35,001 bases of DNA from Promethearchaeota archaeon (GTDB lineage Archaea > Asgardarchaeota > Lokiarchaeia > Sigyniarchaeales > SOKP01), in assembly GCA_048940925.1 (NCBI GenBank), contig JBHLOC010000048.1:1-35001 (forward strand), given 5' to 3'. Shown here piece by piece: positions 25,801-29,445 of the stretch. Both the position numbers and the translations under genes were made by a program. The notes under the pieces are model-generated. The model was not told the DNA's origin and did not search any database. It worked only from the letters and a program-made list of their open reading frames with translations. Each line of letters begins with the position of its first letter. Within the stretch, counting starts at the first letter, position 1.

Positions 25801-26557
25801 CTATTTTATGGATTTGATTTTTAGGACTTCTTCTCGTTCTCTTCCTTTTAAATTACGTATTGCATATAGTGTTATTGTAGAGGATACTCCTTTTTTCCTT
25901 AAATCTTTGACATAATTTAATACTTTTTCCTTATTTCTCCCGATCATATTATCTTTAAGTGCCCATCCAACTGCTTTTCTCACTAAATCTTCTTTCTCCC
26001 AGATTAAATTATCACATAATTCTAAAAGAAAATCTACATATTCACCCTCGGCTCCGATTTTTCTTGTGAATGTAACAACACTAGATCGCTTTTTCCACAT
26101 ATGATTAGAATTATTCCACTTTTTTAATAGTTTTTTAACCTCACTCGGATATTTTCGTAATAAGGGTTGCATAATATGAAGAGAAAATGAATCAGTCGGA
26201 CCCCAATCAGTTAAATACCCAGAAATTTCATTTAATATTTCAAATTTTTGTGGTTTTAATTCTGCCAAGCTTATTTCAATAAGTTTTAATCCAAAACTAG
26301 ATTGCGCGATATAATCAACCTTATAAAAATATTTGAGACAAATTTATGCGTTCTTCAAAAGATAATTCTTTAAATTGGGTTAAATATTTCTTAATAATTT
26401 TATTAATTTCAGGAACTTTTAGTCCATATGCTTTAAATCCATGTTCTTCATAAACTTTTTGGTTCCAATTTGTATATTCTTCTTTAGATTCGAATTTATT
26501 AATAGCTTCTTTTTCCAATTCATGGGTTATGGTATTATAAAGTTGTTTGATAGCCAT
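25801..26557 (-). pseudogene. AlkD-like DNA alkylation repair (HEAT-repeat) protein, split by a 1-nt frameshift
   Basis: The N-terminal ORF (YGLKVPEINKI) and C-terminal ORF (DWGPTD, WKKRSS, DLVRKAVGWALK) join as LSQIFYKVDYIAQSSFGLKLIEISLAELK if one base is removed from the A5 run at 26325-26329. Confidence 0.8.
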
Positions 26558-26590: not shown

Positions 26591-27163
26591 TCAATATTCT
26601 ATACCAAATCTTGCACTTATACCTTTTGAAGAATAATAATGCTTTATCATCCGCATTTCAGTAACTAGATCTGCTGCTTCTTTTATCTTAGGATGCATCT
26701 TTGGCCCACCTGTTAAGATGAGTTCAACTTTCTCTGGTTTATTTTTTATAATTTCTAATACAGGTTCAACAGAAATAACATTCATAGATATTGCTACTCC
26801 AACTTCATCAAGAATAACAATATCATACTCATCACTCATAATAATTTTTTTAGCAAAATCTAATGCTTTCTGACCCTCTTCAAGGTCAAATTCATTCGGT
26901 TCAGCGATAAGTTCAGGGCTACCAAATTGCTTCAATTCAAAATTAGATATCATTTTAATGGCTTCTATTTCTCCATATTTATAATTCCCTTTCATAAACT
27001 GAATCATATATACTTTAAAACCGTGTCCAGTAGCGCGTATACCCTGACCGATAGCAGCTGTAGTTTTACCCATGGGCATTACTGTTTAAATTACAGTAGT
27101 TTTACCTCGGCCAAAATAAACTTGTACTAATCCTTCTTTTAGTCTTTTTCTAGATGCACTCAT
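26591..27163 (-). CDS. cobO: Cob(I)yrinic acid a,c-diamide adenosyltransferase (CobA/BtuR/CobO family), interrupted in the P-loop by an in-frame stop-containing insert
   Basis: ATG 27163 gives MSASRKRLKEGLVQVYFGRGK-[TTVI*TVMPM]-GKTTAAIGQGIRATGHG, in frame with IQFMKG, VILDE, ELILTG, ADLVTEM, KHY and GIEY. Confidence 0.88.
27072..27101 (-). other. Candidate 30-nt bulge-helix-bulge-type intron (or recoding/insertion element)
   Basis: Hairpin UACUGU/ACAGUA with UAA in the loop; G(A)GGU/GCCC central helix with AAA and AUG 3-nt bulges. Excision gives GGU AAG GGU AAA (GKGK). Confidence 0.5.
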
Positions 27164-27408
27164 CTTAATCTAACCTATTAATTTATTATAATTTGAAATA
27201 CTCTATTATTTCAATAATTATTAAATTTTCTAAAAATTATAACATACATCAGAGAAATTACATTTATATAATCAAATATAATACTATTTATAGGATCCAT
27301 CTTATTGAATTCAAAAATTTAATCTATCATATAAGATATCGATAAATCCCTCATTATGTCAAAGGAAATTCAACTATTTTGTCTTGTGAAAGAATTTGTG
27401 AAGAAAAA

Positions 27409-29445
27409 ATGATTGATAAAGGAAAATCTGAAGAATATTTATATACAAAAAAACTGATTGAAGAGGGCAAGCATGAGGAGGCTATTCGACTAATTGATAC
27501 ATTTATGGAAAAAGGAGAGCAAACATCTTACGAAATTTTATTATATAACTTTCTAAAATGTAAGATATTATACCAGCAAGGCTTATTTGAAGATCTTTTT
27601 ACTCTCGCCCAACATACTTATAAAGAGAGTTTGGGATTAGGATATACTCTTTTATCTATTGATGCTTCACTTCGAATGGCTGAAGCCCTAATATGGCTCC
27701 ACGAACCAACTAAAGCTGAACGGTTAATTAAGCAAGGAAAGGATCTGCTGAAAATTCAAACACAAAGACATTCTTTAGAATACAAAATAAGAGAAGCTAA
27801 TATTTTTTATATTAAAGGATTGTTTTATGCATGGAACAAAAATGATGCGGATCAGGCTAGAGAGAACCTTGATAAGAGTATTAAATTATTTGAAAGCCTT
27901 GAAGAAAAGGCAGGGCTCACTAAATCCCTTATTATAAGTGCGATTGTATTTGGGACTTTAAAATCAGAACATGACCATGCCATAAAGTTATTAGAACAAT
28001 CGTTAGCGCTTTCTGAAGAATCTAACTATCAACACTCTAATGCTCATAGTCTTATATTATTGGGAGTAAACTATGAGTTTAAGGGCGATTTAGATCGTAG
28101 TATTAATCTTTATGAGCAAAGTCTAACCAAGTCTAAAGAACTCAACAATAAGTATTTTTTATCAAGTGTGTTTACCTATATAGGTACTGCGTATATTGAA
28201 AAATACGATTTGGGTAAGGCTTTGGAATATGCAAAACAGGGATTAGCTCTTGCTAAGGAAGTAAATCATAAAATGCGAATTGCAGAAAGTATTGGTGTTG
28301 TGGCAATGGCATATAGTATCAAAGGAGAAATTGATCAAAGTATTACTCTTTATGAGCAAGCTCTAAAATTCTGTAAGGAAATTGATTATAAATTCGGTAT
28401 AGCGGTTGCTTTCAACAATCTGTCGGGTTGTTATAGAATTATAGGAGATTTGGAAAGAGCACTCGAGTGTATAGAGTCAAGTATAGCAATTAACAATGAG
28501 TTGGGAAATTTATATAATGTAACTCATAATTACGATAATTTAATTGAAATATTAATAGATAAAGGTGAACTTGAACAAGCTCAGACATCTCTTGAACAAT
28601 TAAAACATATGAAGAATCAAATAAATGATAATTTTACTAATTTGTTATATCTATATGATAAGGCATTACTATTAAAAACCAGCTCTCAAATCGACGATAG
28701 AGGCAAATCTGAAGAAATATTAAAACAAATTCTTGCTGATGAGAATGTTAATTATGAACTTACTGTAAAAGTCCTTCTTAATTTATGCGAATTGCTCCAC
28801 ACTGAATTAGGTATTACTAATGACTTAAGCGTGTTAGATGAAATTAATTCATATACTGCCCAACTTTTAGATTTTGCTGAAAAGAGTAATTCTTTTATCT
28901 TATTGGCTGAAGTTTATTTTTTAAAAGCTAAATTGGCTTTATTGACTTTAGATATAAAAACTACTCGTCGATTTTTAACCCAAGCTCAACAAATTGCTGA
29001 AAGGTTTACCCTTAATCAATTGGCTGCTAAAATTGCACTTGAACACAAAAATTTGCTTGAAAAACGAAGTATGTGGGAAAACCTAAAAAAAAAAGATATA
29101 TCCTTAACAGAACGGATAAAATTAGCTGGATTAAACACACAAATGAAACAAATACTTCGTGAAAGCACCATATTATCTACCCAAACCACAAAAGAAGAAA
29201 TAAAAATTCTTAAAGAGCGGAAAAAGTGCCTAGTCTGTAAAGGTGAAGTACTAGGTTACAGCTTTATCTGCCAATGTGATGCTGTCTATTGTCAAAAATG
29301 TGCTCAAGCGTTAATTGACCTAGAAAATGTGTGTTGGGTATGTAATAATCCACTCGATATATCAAAACCTAGTAAACCTTACAAGGAAGAAAAAGGAAAA
29401 AAAAAAGAGAGAATAAAAAAATCTCTAAAAAGTAAAAGTAAATAA
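27409..29445 (+). CDS. TPR-repeat protein with C-terminal C4C4 RING-like zinc finger
   Basis: About 40-aa TPR-like repeats (LGVNYEFKGDLDRSINLYEQSL etc.); C-x2-C-x10-C-x-C-x4-C-x2-C-x10-C-x2-C; Lys-rich tail. Start at ATG 27409 or TTG 27379. Confidence 0.88.
   Translation: MIDKGKSEEYLYTKKLIEEGKHEEAIRLIDTFMEKGEQTSYEILLYNFLKCKILYQQGLFEDLFTLAQHTYKESLGLGYTLLSIDASLRMAEALIWLHEPTKAERLIKQGKDLLKIQTQRHSLEYKIREANIFYIKGLFYAWNKNDADQARENLDKSIKLFESLEEKAGLTKSLIISAIVFGTLKSEHDHAIKLLEQSLALSEESNYQHSNAHSLILLGVNYEFKGDLDRSINLYEQSLTKSKELNNKYFLSSVFTYIGTAYIEKYDLGKALEYAKQGLALAKEVNHKMRIAESIGVVAMAYSIKGEIDQSITLYEQALKFCKEIDYKFGIAVAFNNLSGCYRIIGDLERALECIESSIAINNELGNLYNVTHNYDNLIEILIDKGELEQAQTSLEQLKHMKNQINDNFTNLLYLYDKALLLKTSSQIDDRGKSEEILKQILADENVNYELTVKVLLNLCELLHTELGITNDLSVLDEINSYTAQLLDFAEKSNSFILLAEVYFLKAKLALLTLDIKTTRRFLTQAQQIAERFTLNQLAAKIALEHKNLLEKRSMWENLKKKDISLTERIKLAGLNTQMKQILRESTILSTQTTKEEIKILKERKKCLVCKGEVLGYSFICQCDAVYCQKCAQALIDLENVCWVCNNPLDISKPSKPYKEEKGKKKERIKKSLKSKSK

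What the first reader, a model, noticed from the sequence alone, without database searches (positions are those of the whole stretch)
27060..27117. Candidate bulge-helix-bulge mRNA intron in the P-loop of cobA/btuR
Seen in sequence: the mRNA reads UUU GGC CGA GGU AAA ACU ACU GUA AUU UAA ACA GUA AUG CCC AUG GGU AAA ACU ACA GCU, so the otherwise intact gene has an in-frame insert with a stop. Folding by hand gives an inner stem A-U, C.A, UACUGU/ACAGUA with the UAA in its 7-nt loop; a central helix G(A)GGU/GCCC; 3-nt bulges AAA and AUG, each 3' of a central-helix strand; and an outer exon helix GCC/GGU then UUUU/AAAA. Established: archaeal splicing endonuclease EndA cuts after the second bulge nucleotide, RtcB ligates, and BHB introns in mRNA are known mainly from crenarchaeal cbf5. 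The CobA/BtuR P-loop is GxGKGKT. Inference: cutting AA^A and AU^G removes exactly 30 nt (27101-27072) and yields GGC CGA GGU AAG GGU AAA ACU ACA = GRGKGKTT and a 180-aa protein. The canonical cut register restoring both frame and motif is the key coincidence. This would be a spliced, possibly regulatory, protein-gene intron in a probable Asgard archaeon. Caveats: the central helix is imperfect (extra A, or an A.C mismatch) and the neighbouring alkD is also broken.
Basis: partly seen in the sequence, partly recalled or inferred. Interest (0 to 1): 0.9.

Follow-up and report, generated by a model that had tools for sequence, protein, structure and literature searches.

The report
tRNA-type mini-intron in Asgard cobA
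The vitamin-B12 adenosyltransferase gene (cobA/btuR) of this Loki-type Asgard archaeon is split inside its ATP-binding loop by a 30-base hairpin shaped like an archaeal tRNA intron, and comparison of 49 related copies shows the gene reads correctly only if that hairpin is cut out of the mRNA at the tRNA-splicing enzyme's usual cut sites, a kind of mRNA splicing that papers document within an archaeal coding sequence for only one gene (cbf5).

Summary
It now rests on comparative evidence, not on a hand fold. The 30-nt insert (window 27101-27072, minus strand) is real DNA, present in contigs from three other samples. An insert sits at the same site in 49 of 163 cobA loci of Promethearchaeota (35 distinct sequences). 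Lengths are 29-33 nt, and all the length variation lies in the hairpin loop. In 21 of 49 loci the length is not a multiple of three. The 3-4-3 bulge-helix-bulge structure covaries strongly: 89.9% of cells pair against 39-52% in slid controls, with 0/500 shuffles reaching the observed score. Only the canonical cut (after bulge nucleotide 2) restores the invariant GRGKGKTT in all 49. Intron-bearing genes are under the same purifying selection as intron-less ones (dN/dS 0.03-0.13). The genome encodes two EndA paralogues and RtcB, and other genes in it are split the same way. No RNA data were available, so splicing itself is inferred. The 11-nt direct repeat (hop or scar reading) and the pseudogene reading are rejected. 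The broken alkD next door is an unrelated 1-nt frameshift. This scan has reported the same class of intron before on other DNA, including other parts of this genome.

The parts
27102..27163 (-). cobA/btuR exon 1: ATG 27163-27161, 20 codons plus the first two bases (AA) of the split Lys codon; encodes MSASRKRLKEGLVQVYFGRG + AA
   Evidence: corresponds to PF02572 HMM positions 1-13 by comparison with the intron-less orthologue; protein conserved through synonymous changes in intron-bearing relatives
27072..27101 (-). 30-nt bulge-helix-bulge mini-intron (AACUACUGUAAUUUAAACAGUAAUGCCCAU) carrying an in-frame UAA
   Evidence: unique in the genome; present in DNA contigs of three other samples
26591..27071 (-). 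cobA/btuR exon 2: first base G completes the Lys codon (AA|G), then GKTTAAIGQG... to the stop at 26593-26591
   Evidence: PF02572 HMM 14-172, E 5e-50; dN/dS 0.05-0.07 against the nearest intron-less relatives
27104..27107 (-). 5' strand of the central 4-bp helix H (AGGU, exon 1)
   Evidence: pairs with 27077-27074; columns 21-24 / 54-57 of A3 are 98.6% paired, with G.U / G-C / A-U / C-G / U-A variants; recovered by unconstrained RNAalifold
27101..27103 (-). 5' 3-nt bulge AAA; predicted cut between 27102 and 27101 (AA^A)
   Evidence: the third bulge base is intronic and free to vary (U in the four loci L033/L037/L084/L087, i.e. G044 and G053 fetched twice); the first two are always AA
27078..27100 (-). 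inner hairpin h': 8-bp stem (27100-27093 with 27085-27078, one C.A mismatch) and 7-nt loop 27092-27086 holding the UAA stop
   Evidence: 6 of 9 inner pairs show double compensatory changes in 35 sequences; all length variation (29-33 nt) falls in the loop
27074..27077 (-). 3' strand of the central helix H (GCCC, intron)
27071..27073 (-). 3' 3-nt bulge AUG; predicted cut between 27072 and 27071 (AU^G)
   Evidence: the first exon-2 base is a purine in 49 of 49 loci, so AA|R is always Lys
27064..27116 (-). weak outer exon-exon helix h: GCC 27111-27109 with GGU 27070-27068, UUUU 27116-27113 with AAAA 27067-27064; G 27108 and G 27112 unpaired
   Evidence: 88.6% of cells paired but no compensatory change, and the three pairs next to the bulge fail in 2, 5 and 13 of 35 sequences; cannot be told apart from coding constraint

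Best explanation
The insert is a tRNA-type (bulge-helix-bulge) intron in the cobA pre-mRNA. The transcript folds so that exon-1 bases AGGU pair with intron bases GCCC, forming a 4-bp helix flanked on opposite strands by two 3-nt bulges (AAA and AUG). An 8-bp intron hairpin stacks on one side and a weak exon-exon helix on the other. The heteromeric splicing endonuclease EndA cuts after the second base of each bulge. RtcB then joins ...GGU AA to G GGU AAA..., which recreates the Lys codon and the P-loop GRGKGKTT of a 180-aa ATP:corrinoid adenosyltransferase, and releases a 30-nt intron that is probably circular. Shown here: the structure, its covariation, the unique coding-restoring register, purifying selection on both exons, presence of the enzymes, and reality of the DNA. 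Inferred: that the cuts and ligation occur, and that EndA and RtcB are the enzymes responsible.
For: (1) Same-site inserts occur in 49 of 163 cobA loci from Promethearchaeota genomes and metagenomes, 35 of them distinct, with lengths of 29, 30, 31, 32 and 33 nt. MAFFT places every gap in the hairpin loop. (2) Covariation on the 3-4-3 BHB structure: 89.9% of cells are paired against 39-52% when partners are slid. 35 cells are changed on both sides against 11 +/- 2.6 in shuffles (0/500). The central helix is 98.6% paired, and 6 of 9 inner pairs show compensatory changes. RNAalifold recovers both helices unaided. (3) Register: only cutting after bulge base 2 gives FGRGKGKTTA in 49/49. A +1 shift (whole-codon removal) gives Asn in 4 loci (G044 and G053, each fetched twice, read GGU AAU | ... 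AG|A GGU). A -1 shift fails in 35. All 114 intron-less loci read G-x-GK-GKTT, and the 37 intron-less same-genus copies inspected read GRGKGKTT. (4) 21 of 49 inserts are not multiples of 3, and every unspliced copy hits a stop. (5) dN/dS of intron-bearing copies is 0.03-0.13 at dS 0.2-2.5, against a median of 0.051 for intron-less pairs. Exon 1 is conserved through synonymous changes. (6) Machinery: two full-length EndA paralogues, one closest to crenarchaeal heterotetramer alpha subunits, plus RtcB. Asgard archaea are reported to have the broad-specificity (alpha-beta)2 EndA with the L1 loop (PMC5829648). ARAGORN of 34 tRNAs with introns. (7) Other genes of this genome are split by 30-31-nt inserts of the same geometry, with Pfam coordinates continuous across the junction: MM_CoA_mutase 2-54 | 58-501, an EF-2-family GTP_EFTU 3-35 | 49-187, Glycos_trans_3N | Glycos_transf_3 from position 11. 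(8) The insert is in DNA contigs of three other samples, one a strain variant with 2 SNPs elsewhere.
Against: No RNA evidence was obtainable: spliced junction, circular intron and EndA cleavage are all unobserved. In this genome the central helix has an A.C mismatch and the inner stem a C.A mismatch. The outer helix is weak and needs an unpaired G, so the motif is relaxed, not canonical. The single-sequence fold is not more stable than shuffles. Relaxed BHB criteria are not enriched over decoy geometries genome-wide, and strict criteria only modestly so (22 against 5-16 hits at 28-31 nt). The sequences are related, so shuffle statistics overstate independence. The three DNA samples come from one study.
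Confidence: 0.9

Rival explanations
1. Pseudogene: an old insertion inactivated cobA, and the gene (or only a truncated product started at the internal MPM-GKTT) is decaying.
For: An in-frame stop lies in the P-loop. An ATG inside the insert gives a 162-aa ORF. The neighbouring alkD is also broken.
Against: dN/dS of 0.03-0.13 over near-saturated dS is the same as in intron-less copies. The 21-codon exon 1 stays conserved and in phase. The insert persists in 35 distinct sequences down to 72% protein identity with no further lesions. The hairpin covaries. The internal ATG is not conserved (GTG in G004; frame-shifted in the 29-, 31- and 32-nt forms). A product starting there would lack half of the Walker A loop and HMM positions 1-13.
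Confidence: 0.02
2. Translational recoding: the ribosome hops between the two copies of the 11-nt direct repeat GGTAAAACTAC (36 nt apart), or reads through the stop, so no RNA splicing is needed. A variant reads the repeat as the scar of a DNA duplication or insertion.
Against: The repeat is perfect in only 3 of 35 distinct copies, and 22 share just 'GG'. The spacing is 35-39 nt and is not a multiple of 3 in 16 of 35. A repeat-to-repeat hop would give GRGKTTAA, one GK short of the form in all intron-less copies. Readthrough would put 10-11 residues into the P-loop and is impossible for the 21 of 49 frame-shifting lengths. In G044 and G053 the codon before the insert is AAU (Asn), so only joining AA to the downstream purine makes Lys.
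Confidence: 0.02
3. The insert is removed from the RNA, but by a nuclease and ligase pair other than EndA and RtcB, or with imprecise or condition-dependent processing, so that it acts mainly as a switch.
For: The motif is relaxed (A.C, weak outer helix), and no enzyme assay exists. The cbf5 authors proposed a negative regulatory role for their intron (PMC2738675).
Against: The geometry conserved by covariation is exactly the 3-4-3 BHB, and the coding-restoring cuts fall at the canonical EndA positions. The broad-specificity enzyme type that handles relaxed motifs is encoded (PMC5829648). No other known archaeal activity excises 30-nt hairpins precisely.
Confidence: 0.05

Closest known systems
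BHB intron in the cbf5 (pseudouridine synthase) pre-mRNA of Crenarchaeota (Watanabe 2002; Yoshinari 2006; Yokobori 2009, PMC2738675)
   Same: A short tRNA-type intron inside an archaeal protein-coding sequence. It often has a relaxed cleavage motif, occurs in a host with a hetero-oligomeric broad-specificity EndA, and disrupts the codon of a functionally essential residue so that it must be spliced. Its phylogenetic distribution is patchy and interpreted as gain and loss.
   Different: Different gene (cobA/btuR) and different phylum (Promethearchaeota, Asgard). Here it is a uniform ~30-nt minimal hairpin with a stop in the loop. It is one of several such introns in the same genome instead of a lone case. 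There are mosaic identity patches around the intron. cbf5 splicing was shown experimentally, whereas this one is inferred.
BHB intron in the 5' UTR of Haloferax volcanii HVO_1309 (PMC7714728)
   Same: An mRNA substrate of the archaeal splicing endonuclease outside tRNA and rRNA, found as a circular excised intron and cut by recombinant EndA.
   Different: That intron lies in the untranslated leader (46 nt) and does not interrupt the reading frame. The host is a euryarchaeon with a homodimeric EndA.
Archaeal pre-tRNA BHB introns, including the abundant introns of Asgard tRNA genes (Marck and Grosjean 2003; bioRxiv 10.64898/2026.10.13.758758)
   Same: The same motif (two 3-nt bulges, 4-bp helix), the same cut positions, and presumably the same enzymes. 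This genome is rich in tRNA introns.
   Different: The host RNA is an mRNA. Half of the motif has to be built from codons, and the outer helix is constrained by coding.
IRE1/RtcB splicing of HAC1/XBP1 mRNA in eukaryotes
   Same: Spliceosome-independent endonuclease-plus-RtcB splicing of a short intron from a protein-coding mRNA, which changes the reading frame.
   Different: A different nuclease (IRE1) recognising stem-loops, not a BHB. It is stress-regulated. The resemblance is analogy, not homology of the cis element.

Membership tests
Archaeal bulge-helix-bulge (tRNA-type) intron | [quoted passage not shown] | tested here: met
   Columns 21-24 / 54-57 of A3 are 98.6% paired, and both bulges are exactly 3 nt in all 35 distinct sequences. 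In this genome one of the four pairs is A.C.
Archaeal bulge-helix-bulge (tRNA-type) intron | Inner helix h' (intron) abutting the 5' bulge | tested here: met
   An 8-9-bp stem; 6 of 9 pairs show double compensatory changes, including pair 29-52 next to the bulge (UA 20, CG 10).
Archaeal bulge-helix-bulge (tRNA-type) intron | Outer helix h (exon-exon) closing the 3' bulge (canonical hBHBh'; absent in relaxed HBh' forms) | tested here: inconclusive
   88.6% of cells paired, but no compensatory change. One unpaired G is needed, and the pairs nearest the bulge fail in up to 13 of 35 sequences. This is a relaxed motif in many copies.
Archaeal bulge-helix-bulge (tRNA-type) intron | Cleavage after the second nucleotide of each bulge, with exons ligated precisely | tested here: met
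   Met indirectly only: this register alone restores FGRGKGKTTA in 49/49 loci. Actual cleavage and ligation are not testable with these tools.
Archaeal bulge-helix-bulge (tRNA-type) intron | Spliced junction or circular intron present in RNA | not testable with these tools
   No RNA holder was listed for this stretch.
Archaeal bulge-helix-bulge (tRNA-type) intron | Host encodes EndA (of a type that accepts relaxed motifs outside tRNA) and RtcB | tested here: met
   Two PF01974 + PF02778 paralogues of 198 and 200 aa, one closest to crenarchaeal heterotetramer alpha chains 3p1z_B, 3ajv_B and 2zyz_B; one RtcB at 556 bits. The L1 loop itself was not examined.
CobA/CobO/BtuR ATP:corrinoid adenosyltransferase (PF02572) | Full-length match to the family profile with an intact P-loop GxGKGKT | tested here: met
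   Exon 2 covers HMM 14-172 (E 5e-50). Exon 1 supplies positions 1-13, judged against the intron-less orthologue that covers 1-172. The P-loop is intact only after excision.
Programmed translational bypass (T4 gene 60 type) | Matched take-off and landing codons flanking the gap, conserved among relatives, giving the correct protein | tested here: not met
   The repeat is perfect in 3 of 35, the spacing is not a multiple of 3 in 16 of 35, and the hop product lacks one GK.
Self-splicing group I or group II intron, or any Rfam family | Match to a curated RNA family or ribozyme core | tested here: not met
   No Rfam hit at gathering score in the window, nor at E <= 1 around the site. By established knowledge, 30 nt is far too short for a ribozyme core.

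The most novel reading that the evidence does not exclude
The cobA mini-intron is not a static relic. It is a laterally mobile element that spreads and is erased among Promethearchaeia lineages by homologous recombination, co-converting the short exon 1. It is one member of a genome-wide population of ~30-nt endonuclease-spliced introns in protein-coding genes. That would make routine, obligatory mRNA splicing, with intron gain and loss dynamics, a feature of the closest archaeal relatives of eukaryotes.
Probability: 0.35. Interest if true: 0.88.

Novelty: new member of a known kind. Interest (0 to 1): 0.72.

Why it matters
In the papers I could search, endonuclease-type (BHB) introns inside archaeal coding sequence are documented only for cbf5 in Crenarchaeota. 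Reviews and primary papers up to 2025-2026 still cite only that case plus one 5'-UTR intron. This is a second gene in a different phylum, Asgard, the closest archaeal relatives of eukaryotes. The comparative record is unusually clean: five length classes, strong covariation, and a split Lys codon that only the canonical cut repairs. It shows that annotation pipelines will miscall such genes as pseudogenes or truncated ORFs, so the B12-salvage capacity of these MAGs is under-called. It provides a compact natural substrate (about 70 nt) for testing Asgard EndA specificity on mRNA. Together with the other split genes in the same genome, it makes directly testable whether mRNA splicing by tRNA-splicing enzymes was already common in the archaeal lineage that gave rise to eukaryotes. 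The class has been reported repeatedly by this scan on other DNA, so this instance adds depth to the class and is not a first sighting.

Tried and rejected
- RNA evidence: no RNA holder was listed for the stretch, so expression and splicing could not be examined. Only DNA contigs were laid.
- Single-sequence thermodynamics: MFE -14.3 kcal/mol, z = -0.44 against shuffles, and the MFE structure is not a 3-4-3 BHB. It is uninformative.
- Five-sequence covariation (genus only): 87% paired, but only 49/500 shuffles were beaten for compensatory pairs. This was too few sequences, and resolved it.
- Genome-wide BHB scans:
  - The first version mostly caught gene-to-gene boundaries.
  - One version failed on a script error and two timed out.
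  - Relaxed scoring gave about 2,300 hits for real and decoy geometries alike.
  - Strict scoring gave 50 hits against 50-65 overall, with an excess only at 28-31 nt.
  - One of the five strict hits tested (C56:60259) was an ordinary boundary between two genes.
- Direct-repeat readings (hop, duplication scar, target-site duplication): rejected.
- Insert as a repeated or mobile DNA element in this genome: no other copy of any 14-mer or longer.
- alkD as a second BHB case: rejected. It is one extra T in a T-run relative to the closest relative.
- Rfam: nothing.
- Exon 1 alone (21 aa) gives no Pfam hit because it is too short.
- The count of 26 gains or losses on the 160-row exon-2 FastTree is an over-estimate. 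The alignment is short and the tree poorly resolved, and two unparsed loci (L062, L203) counted as intron-less. The genus tree forces at least 3.

Full report
WHAT IS THERE. On the minus strand the window encodes a CobA/CobO/BtuR ATP:corrinoid adenosyltransferase (PF02572, E 5e-50). Its ATG is at 27163-27161 and its stop at 26593-26591. The reading frame runs MSASRKRLKEGLVQVYFGRGK, then TTVI*TVMPM, then GKTTAAIGQG.... So ten codons, one of them UAA, sit between the two GK dipeptides of the Walker-A loop. An intron-less orthologue matches the Pfam profile over positions 1-172, whereas exon 2 here covers 14-172. The insert therefore lies inside the domain, between profile positions 13 and 14.

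IS IT REAL DNA? Contigs from three other samples (one study) cover the site with no indel and no joint. One is a strain variant with two SNPs outside the insert. The insert sequence occurs only once in the 4.8-Mb, 29.6% G+C assembly.

IS THE SINGLE SEQUENCE CONVINCING? No.
- The MFE fold contains the inner hairpin but is not more stable than shuffled sequence (z = -0.44), and it does not give a 3-4-3 BHB.
- In this genome two excision registers restore GRGKGK (AAG or AAA Lys).
- A tolerant BHB search combined with an open-frame test finds about 2,300 hits whether the true or a decoy bulge geometry is used.
The hand fold alone could therefore have been chance.

COMPARATIVE EVIDENCE. In the same GTDB genus, 45 of 54 genomes have cobA, and five of them (G000, G002, G004, G044, G053) carry an insert at exactly this codon. 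Scans of genome and metagenome contig collections raised this to 49 insert-bearing loci (35 distinct) against 114 without. They reach down to 72% protein identity. The record titles name Promethearchaeota / Promethearchaeia, with a few other Asgard labels. Insert lengths are 29, 30, 31, 32 and 33 nt, and an unsupervised MAFFT alignment places every gap in the hairpin loop. In 21 of 49 loci the length is not a multiple of three, and every unspliced copy meets a stop.

STRUCTURE. On the 35 distinct sequences the proposed structure is a 4-bp central helix with a 3-nt bulge on each strand, an 8-9-bp inner helix and a weak outer helix.
- It is paired in 89.9% of cells, against 39-52% when the 3' partners are slid by 1-3 columns.
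- 35 cells are changed on both sides, against 11 +/- 2.6 in shuffles (0 of 500 reach it).
- The central helix is 98.6% paired, with G.U, G-C, A-U, C-G and U-A variants. The A.C of this genome is one of only two such cases.
- Six of nine inner pairs show double compensatory changes. One lineage has an entirely different stem (ACUUUUGGG/CCUAAAAGU).
- RNAalifold, unconstrained, recovers both helices. It prefers one extra A-U pair to the bulge, but the covariation of pair 29-52 (UA in 20, CG in 10) supports the inner helix abutting a 3-nt bulge.
- The outer exon-exon helix shows no compensatory change and often fails next to the bulge. Many copies are therefore relaxed (HBh'-like) motifs.

REGISTER. 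Established knowledge (Marck and Grosjean 2003; restated in bioRxiv 10.64898/2026.10.13.758758) places one EndA cut in each 3-nt bulge. In the canonical tRNA 37/38 case this is after the second bulge base. Applying that rule gives FGRGKGKTTA in 49 of 49 loci. Moving both cuts by +1 (whole-codon removal) gives Asn in four loci, and moving them by -1 fails in 35. The telling case is G044 and G053, which read GGU AAU | AUU...CCU AG | A GGU. The third bulge base has drifted to U because it is intronic, and the Lys codon is completed by the first exon-2 base, which is a purine in all 49 loci. The structural register and the coding register were derived independently, and they coincide.

SELECTION. 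Intron-bearing copies have dN/dS of 0.03-0.13 at dS 0.2-2.5, against a median of 0.051 (5th-95th percentile 0.030-0.085) for intron-less pairs. The 21-codon exon 1 keeps ...LKxGLVQVYFGRGK through many synonymous changes. The gene, including exon 1, is therefore expressed as one protein.

MACHINERY AND CONTEXT. The genome encodes two full-length EndA paralogues (PF02778 + PF01974). One is closest to the catalytic alpha chains of crenarchaeal heterotetramers. It also encodes one RtcB. Asgard archaea are reported to carry the (alpha-beta)2 EndA with the L1 loop associated with broad specificity (PMC5829648). ARAGORN calls introns in 22 of 34 tRNA genes.

My strict genome scan gave a modest excess of true-geometry hits at 28-31 nt: 22 against 5-16 for decoys. 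Of the five hits tested:
- Three are single Pfam domains continued across a 30-31-nt insert: MM_CoA_mutase 2-54 | 58-501; an EF-2-family GTP_EFTU 3-35 | 49-187; Glycos_trans_3N, then Glycos_transf_3 from position 11.
- One (AIRS) is probable.
- One is an ordinary gene boundary.
cobA is thus one of several genes in this genome split in this way. That partly confirms earlier notes of this scan. One of those notes claims environmental RNA support on other DNA, which I did not test.

DISTRIBUTION AND POSSIBLE MOBILITY. On the genus cobA tree, intron presence needs at least three changes across well-supported branches. Some intron-bearing and intron-less copies are 96% identical in exon 2. Several pairs show mosaics with a breakpoint at the intron:
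- L139 and L149 share an ~80-nt patch (exon 1 plus intron) at ~100% identity inside genes that are ~75% identical.
- L069 (G004) and L177 are 95-100% identical upstream and through the intron, then ~78% after it. L179, from another sample, shares the same intron and exon-1 flank and the same ~78% exon-2 identity to L069.
- L148 (intron) and L167 (no intron) are 97-100% identical from exon 2 onward but unrelated upstream.
This fits spread and loss by homologous recombination with co-conversion of exon 1. Chimeric assembly at the conserved P-loop is the alternative I cannot exclude.

RIVALS.
- A pseudogene is excluded by selection, by conservation of exon 1 and by the covarying structure.
The repeat is perfect in 3 of 35 copies, its spacing is not a multiple of 3 in 16 of 35, and the hop product would lack one GK.
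- Readthrough cannot work for the frame-shifting lengths.
- No Rfam family matches.
- What remains open is only whether EndA and RtcB are the enzymes, and whether splicing is constitutive or regulated.

NEIGHBOURS.
- Downstream on the same strand, alkD (PF08713) is split into 78-aa and 155-aa ORFs by one extra T in a T-run relative to its closest relative (91% identical). This is a plain frameshift or homopolymer error, unrelated to the intron.
- Upstream, transcribed divergently, is a 688-aa TPR protein with a Cys-rich C-terminus.

LITERATURE. In the library searched, BHB introns within archaeal coding sequence are documented only for cbf5 (Watanabe 2002; Yoshinari 2006; Yokobori 2009, PMC2738675), plus a 5'-UTR intron in Haloferax (PMC7714728). 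A 2025 EndA structure paper and a 2026 review of non-canonical splicing add no further case. The 2026 preprint on Asgard tRNA introns does not mention mRNA. Subscription-only papers were not searchable.

VERDICT. This is a real, conserved, covarying BHB mini-intron in the cobA mRNA of a Promethearchaeota archaeon, very probably removed by EndA and RtcB (confidence 0.9). It is a new member of a known but very sparsely documented kind. Splicing itself is still to be shown.

Noticed in passing
window 26321-26330 (minus strand), alkD 25801-26557: The DNA-alkylation-repair gene alkD next to cobA is split into 78-aa and 155-aa ORFs by one extra T in the run ATATTTTTATAA, relative to the closest relative (L021, 91% identical over 760 nt, a single gap). 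It is a plain +1 frameshift or a homopolymer sequencing error, not a structured insert.
   Followed up: yes
L139/L149, L069/L177/L179, L148/L167 (cobA loci from metagenome and genome contigs): Mosaic identity with breakpoints at the intron. An ~80-nt patch (exon 1 plus intron) is identical in genes that are otherwise 75-78% identical. An intron-bearing and an intron-less copy are 97-100% identical downstream but unrelated upstream. This suggests lateral spread or loss of the intron by recombination. Assembly chimeras are not excluded.
   Followed up: partly
G000 C71:54628 (31 nt), C32:27925 (30 nt), C64:13207 (30 nt), C30:66094 (30 nt): Other genes of the same genome are interrupted by 30-31-nt hairpin inserts with strict 3-4-3 BHB geometry: a methylmalonyl-CoA mutase, an EF-2-family GTPase, a thymidine/AMP-phosphorylase-like glycosyltransferase (split inside DKHS|GG) and an AIR-synthase-related protein. 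Pfam coordinates are continuous across the junction for the first three.
   Followed up: partly
window about 27165-27215 (minus strand) and the same place in relatives: The ~35 nt just upstream of the cobA start (…ATAGAGTATTTCAAAWTATAATAAATTA…) is nearly identical in most species of the genus, although synonymous sites in the gene are near saturation. It may be a conserved promoter (TATA/BRE) or a leader element. No Rfam match.
   Followed up: no
cobA introns of L001, L011, L151, L131, L135, L159: In one intron type the first bases of the intron (ACTAC or ACAAC) copy the Thr-Thr codons that follow GK in exon 2, which produces the 11-nt direct repeat seen in this genome. This could be a trace of the intron's origin by local duplication, or it could be coincidence.
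   Followed up: partly
window 27379-29445 (+): A 688-aa TPR-repeat protein (TPR_12, MalT-like TPR) with a Cys-rich, zinc-finger-like C-terminus and a Lys-rich tail is transcribed divergently from cobA.
   Followed up: no
record titles: Genomes that GTDB places in one genus carry submitter labels from several different Asgard phyla (Promethearchaeota, Hermod-, Hod-, Thor-, Odinarchaeota), so organism names in these records are unreliable guides to relatedness.
   Followed up: no
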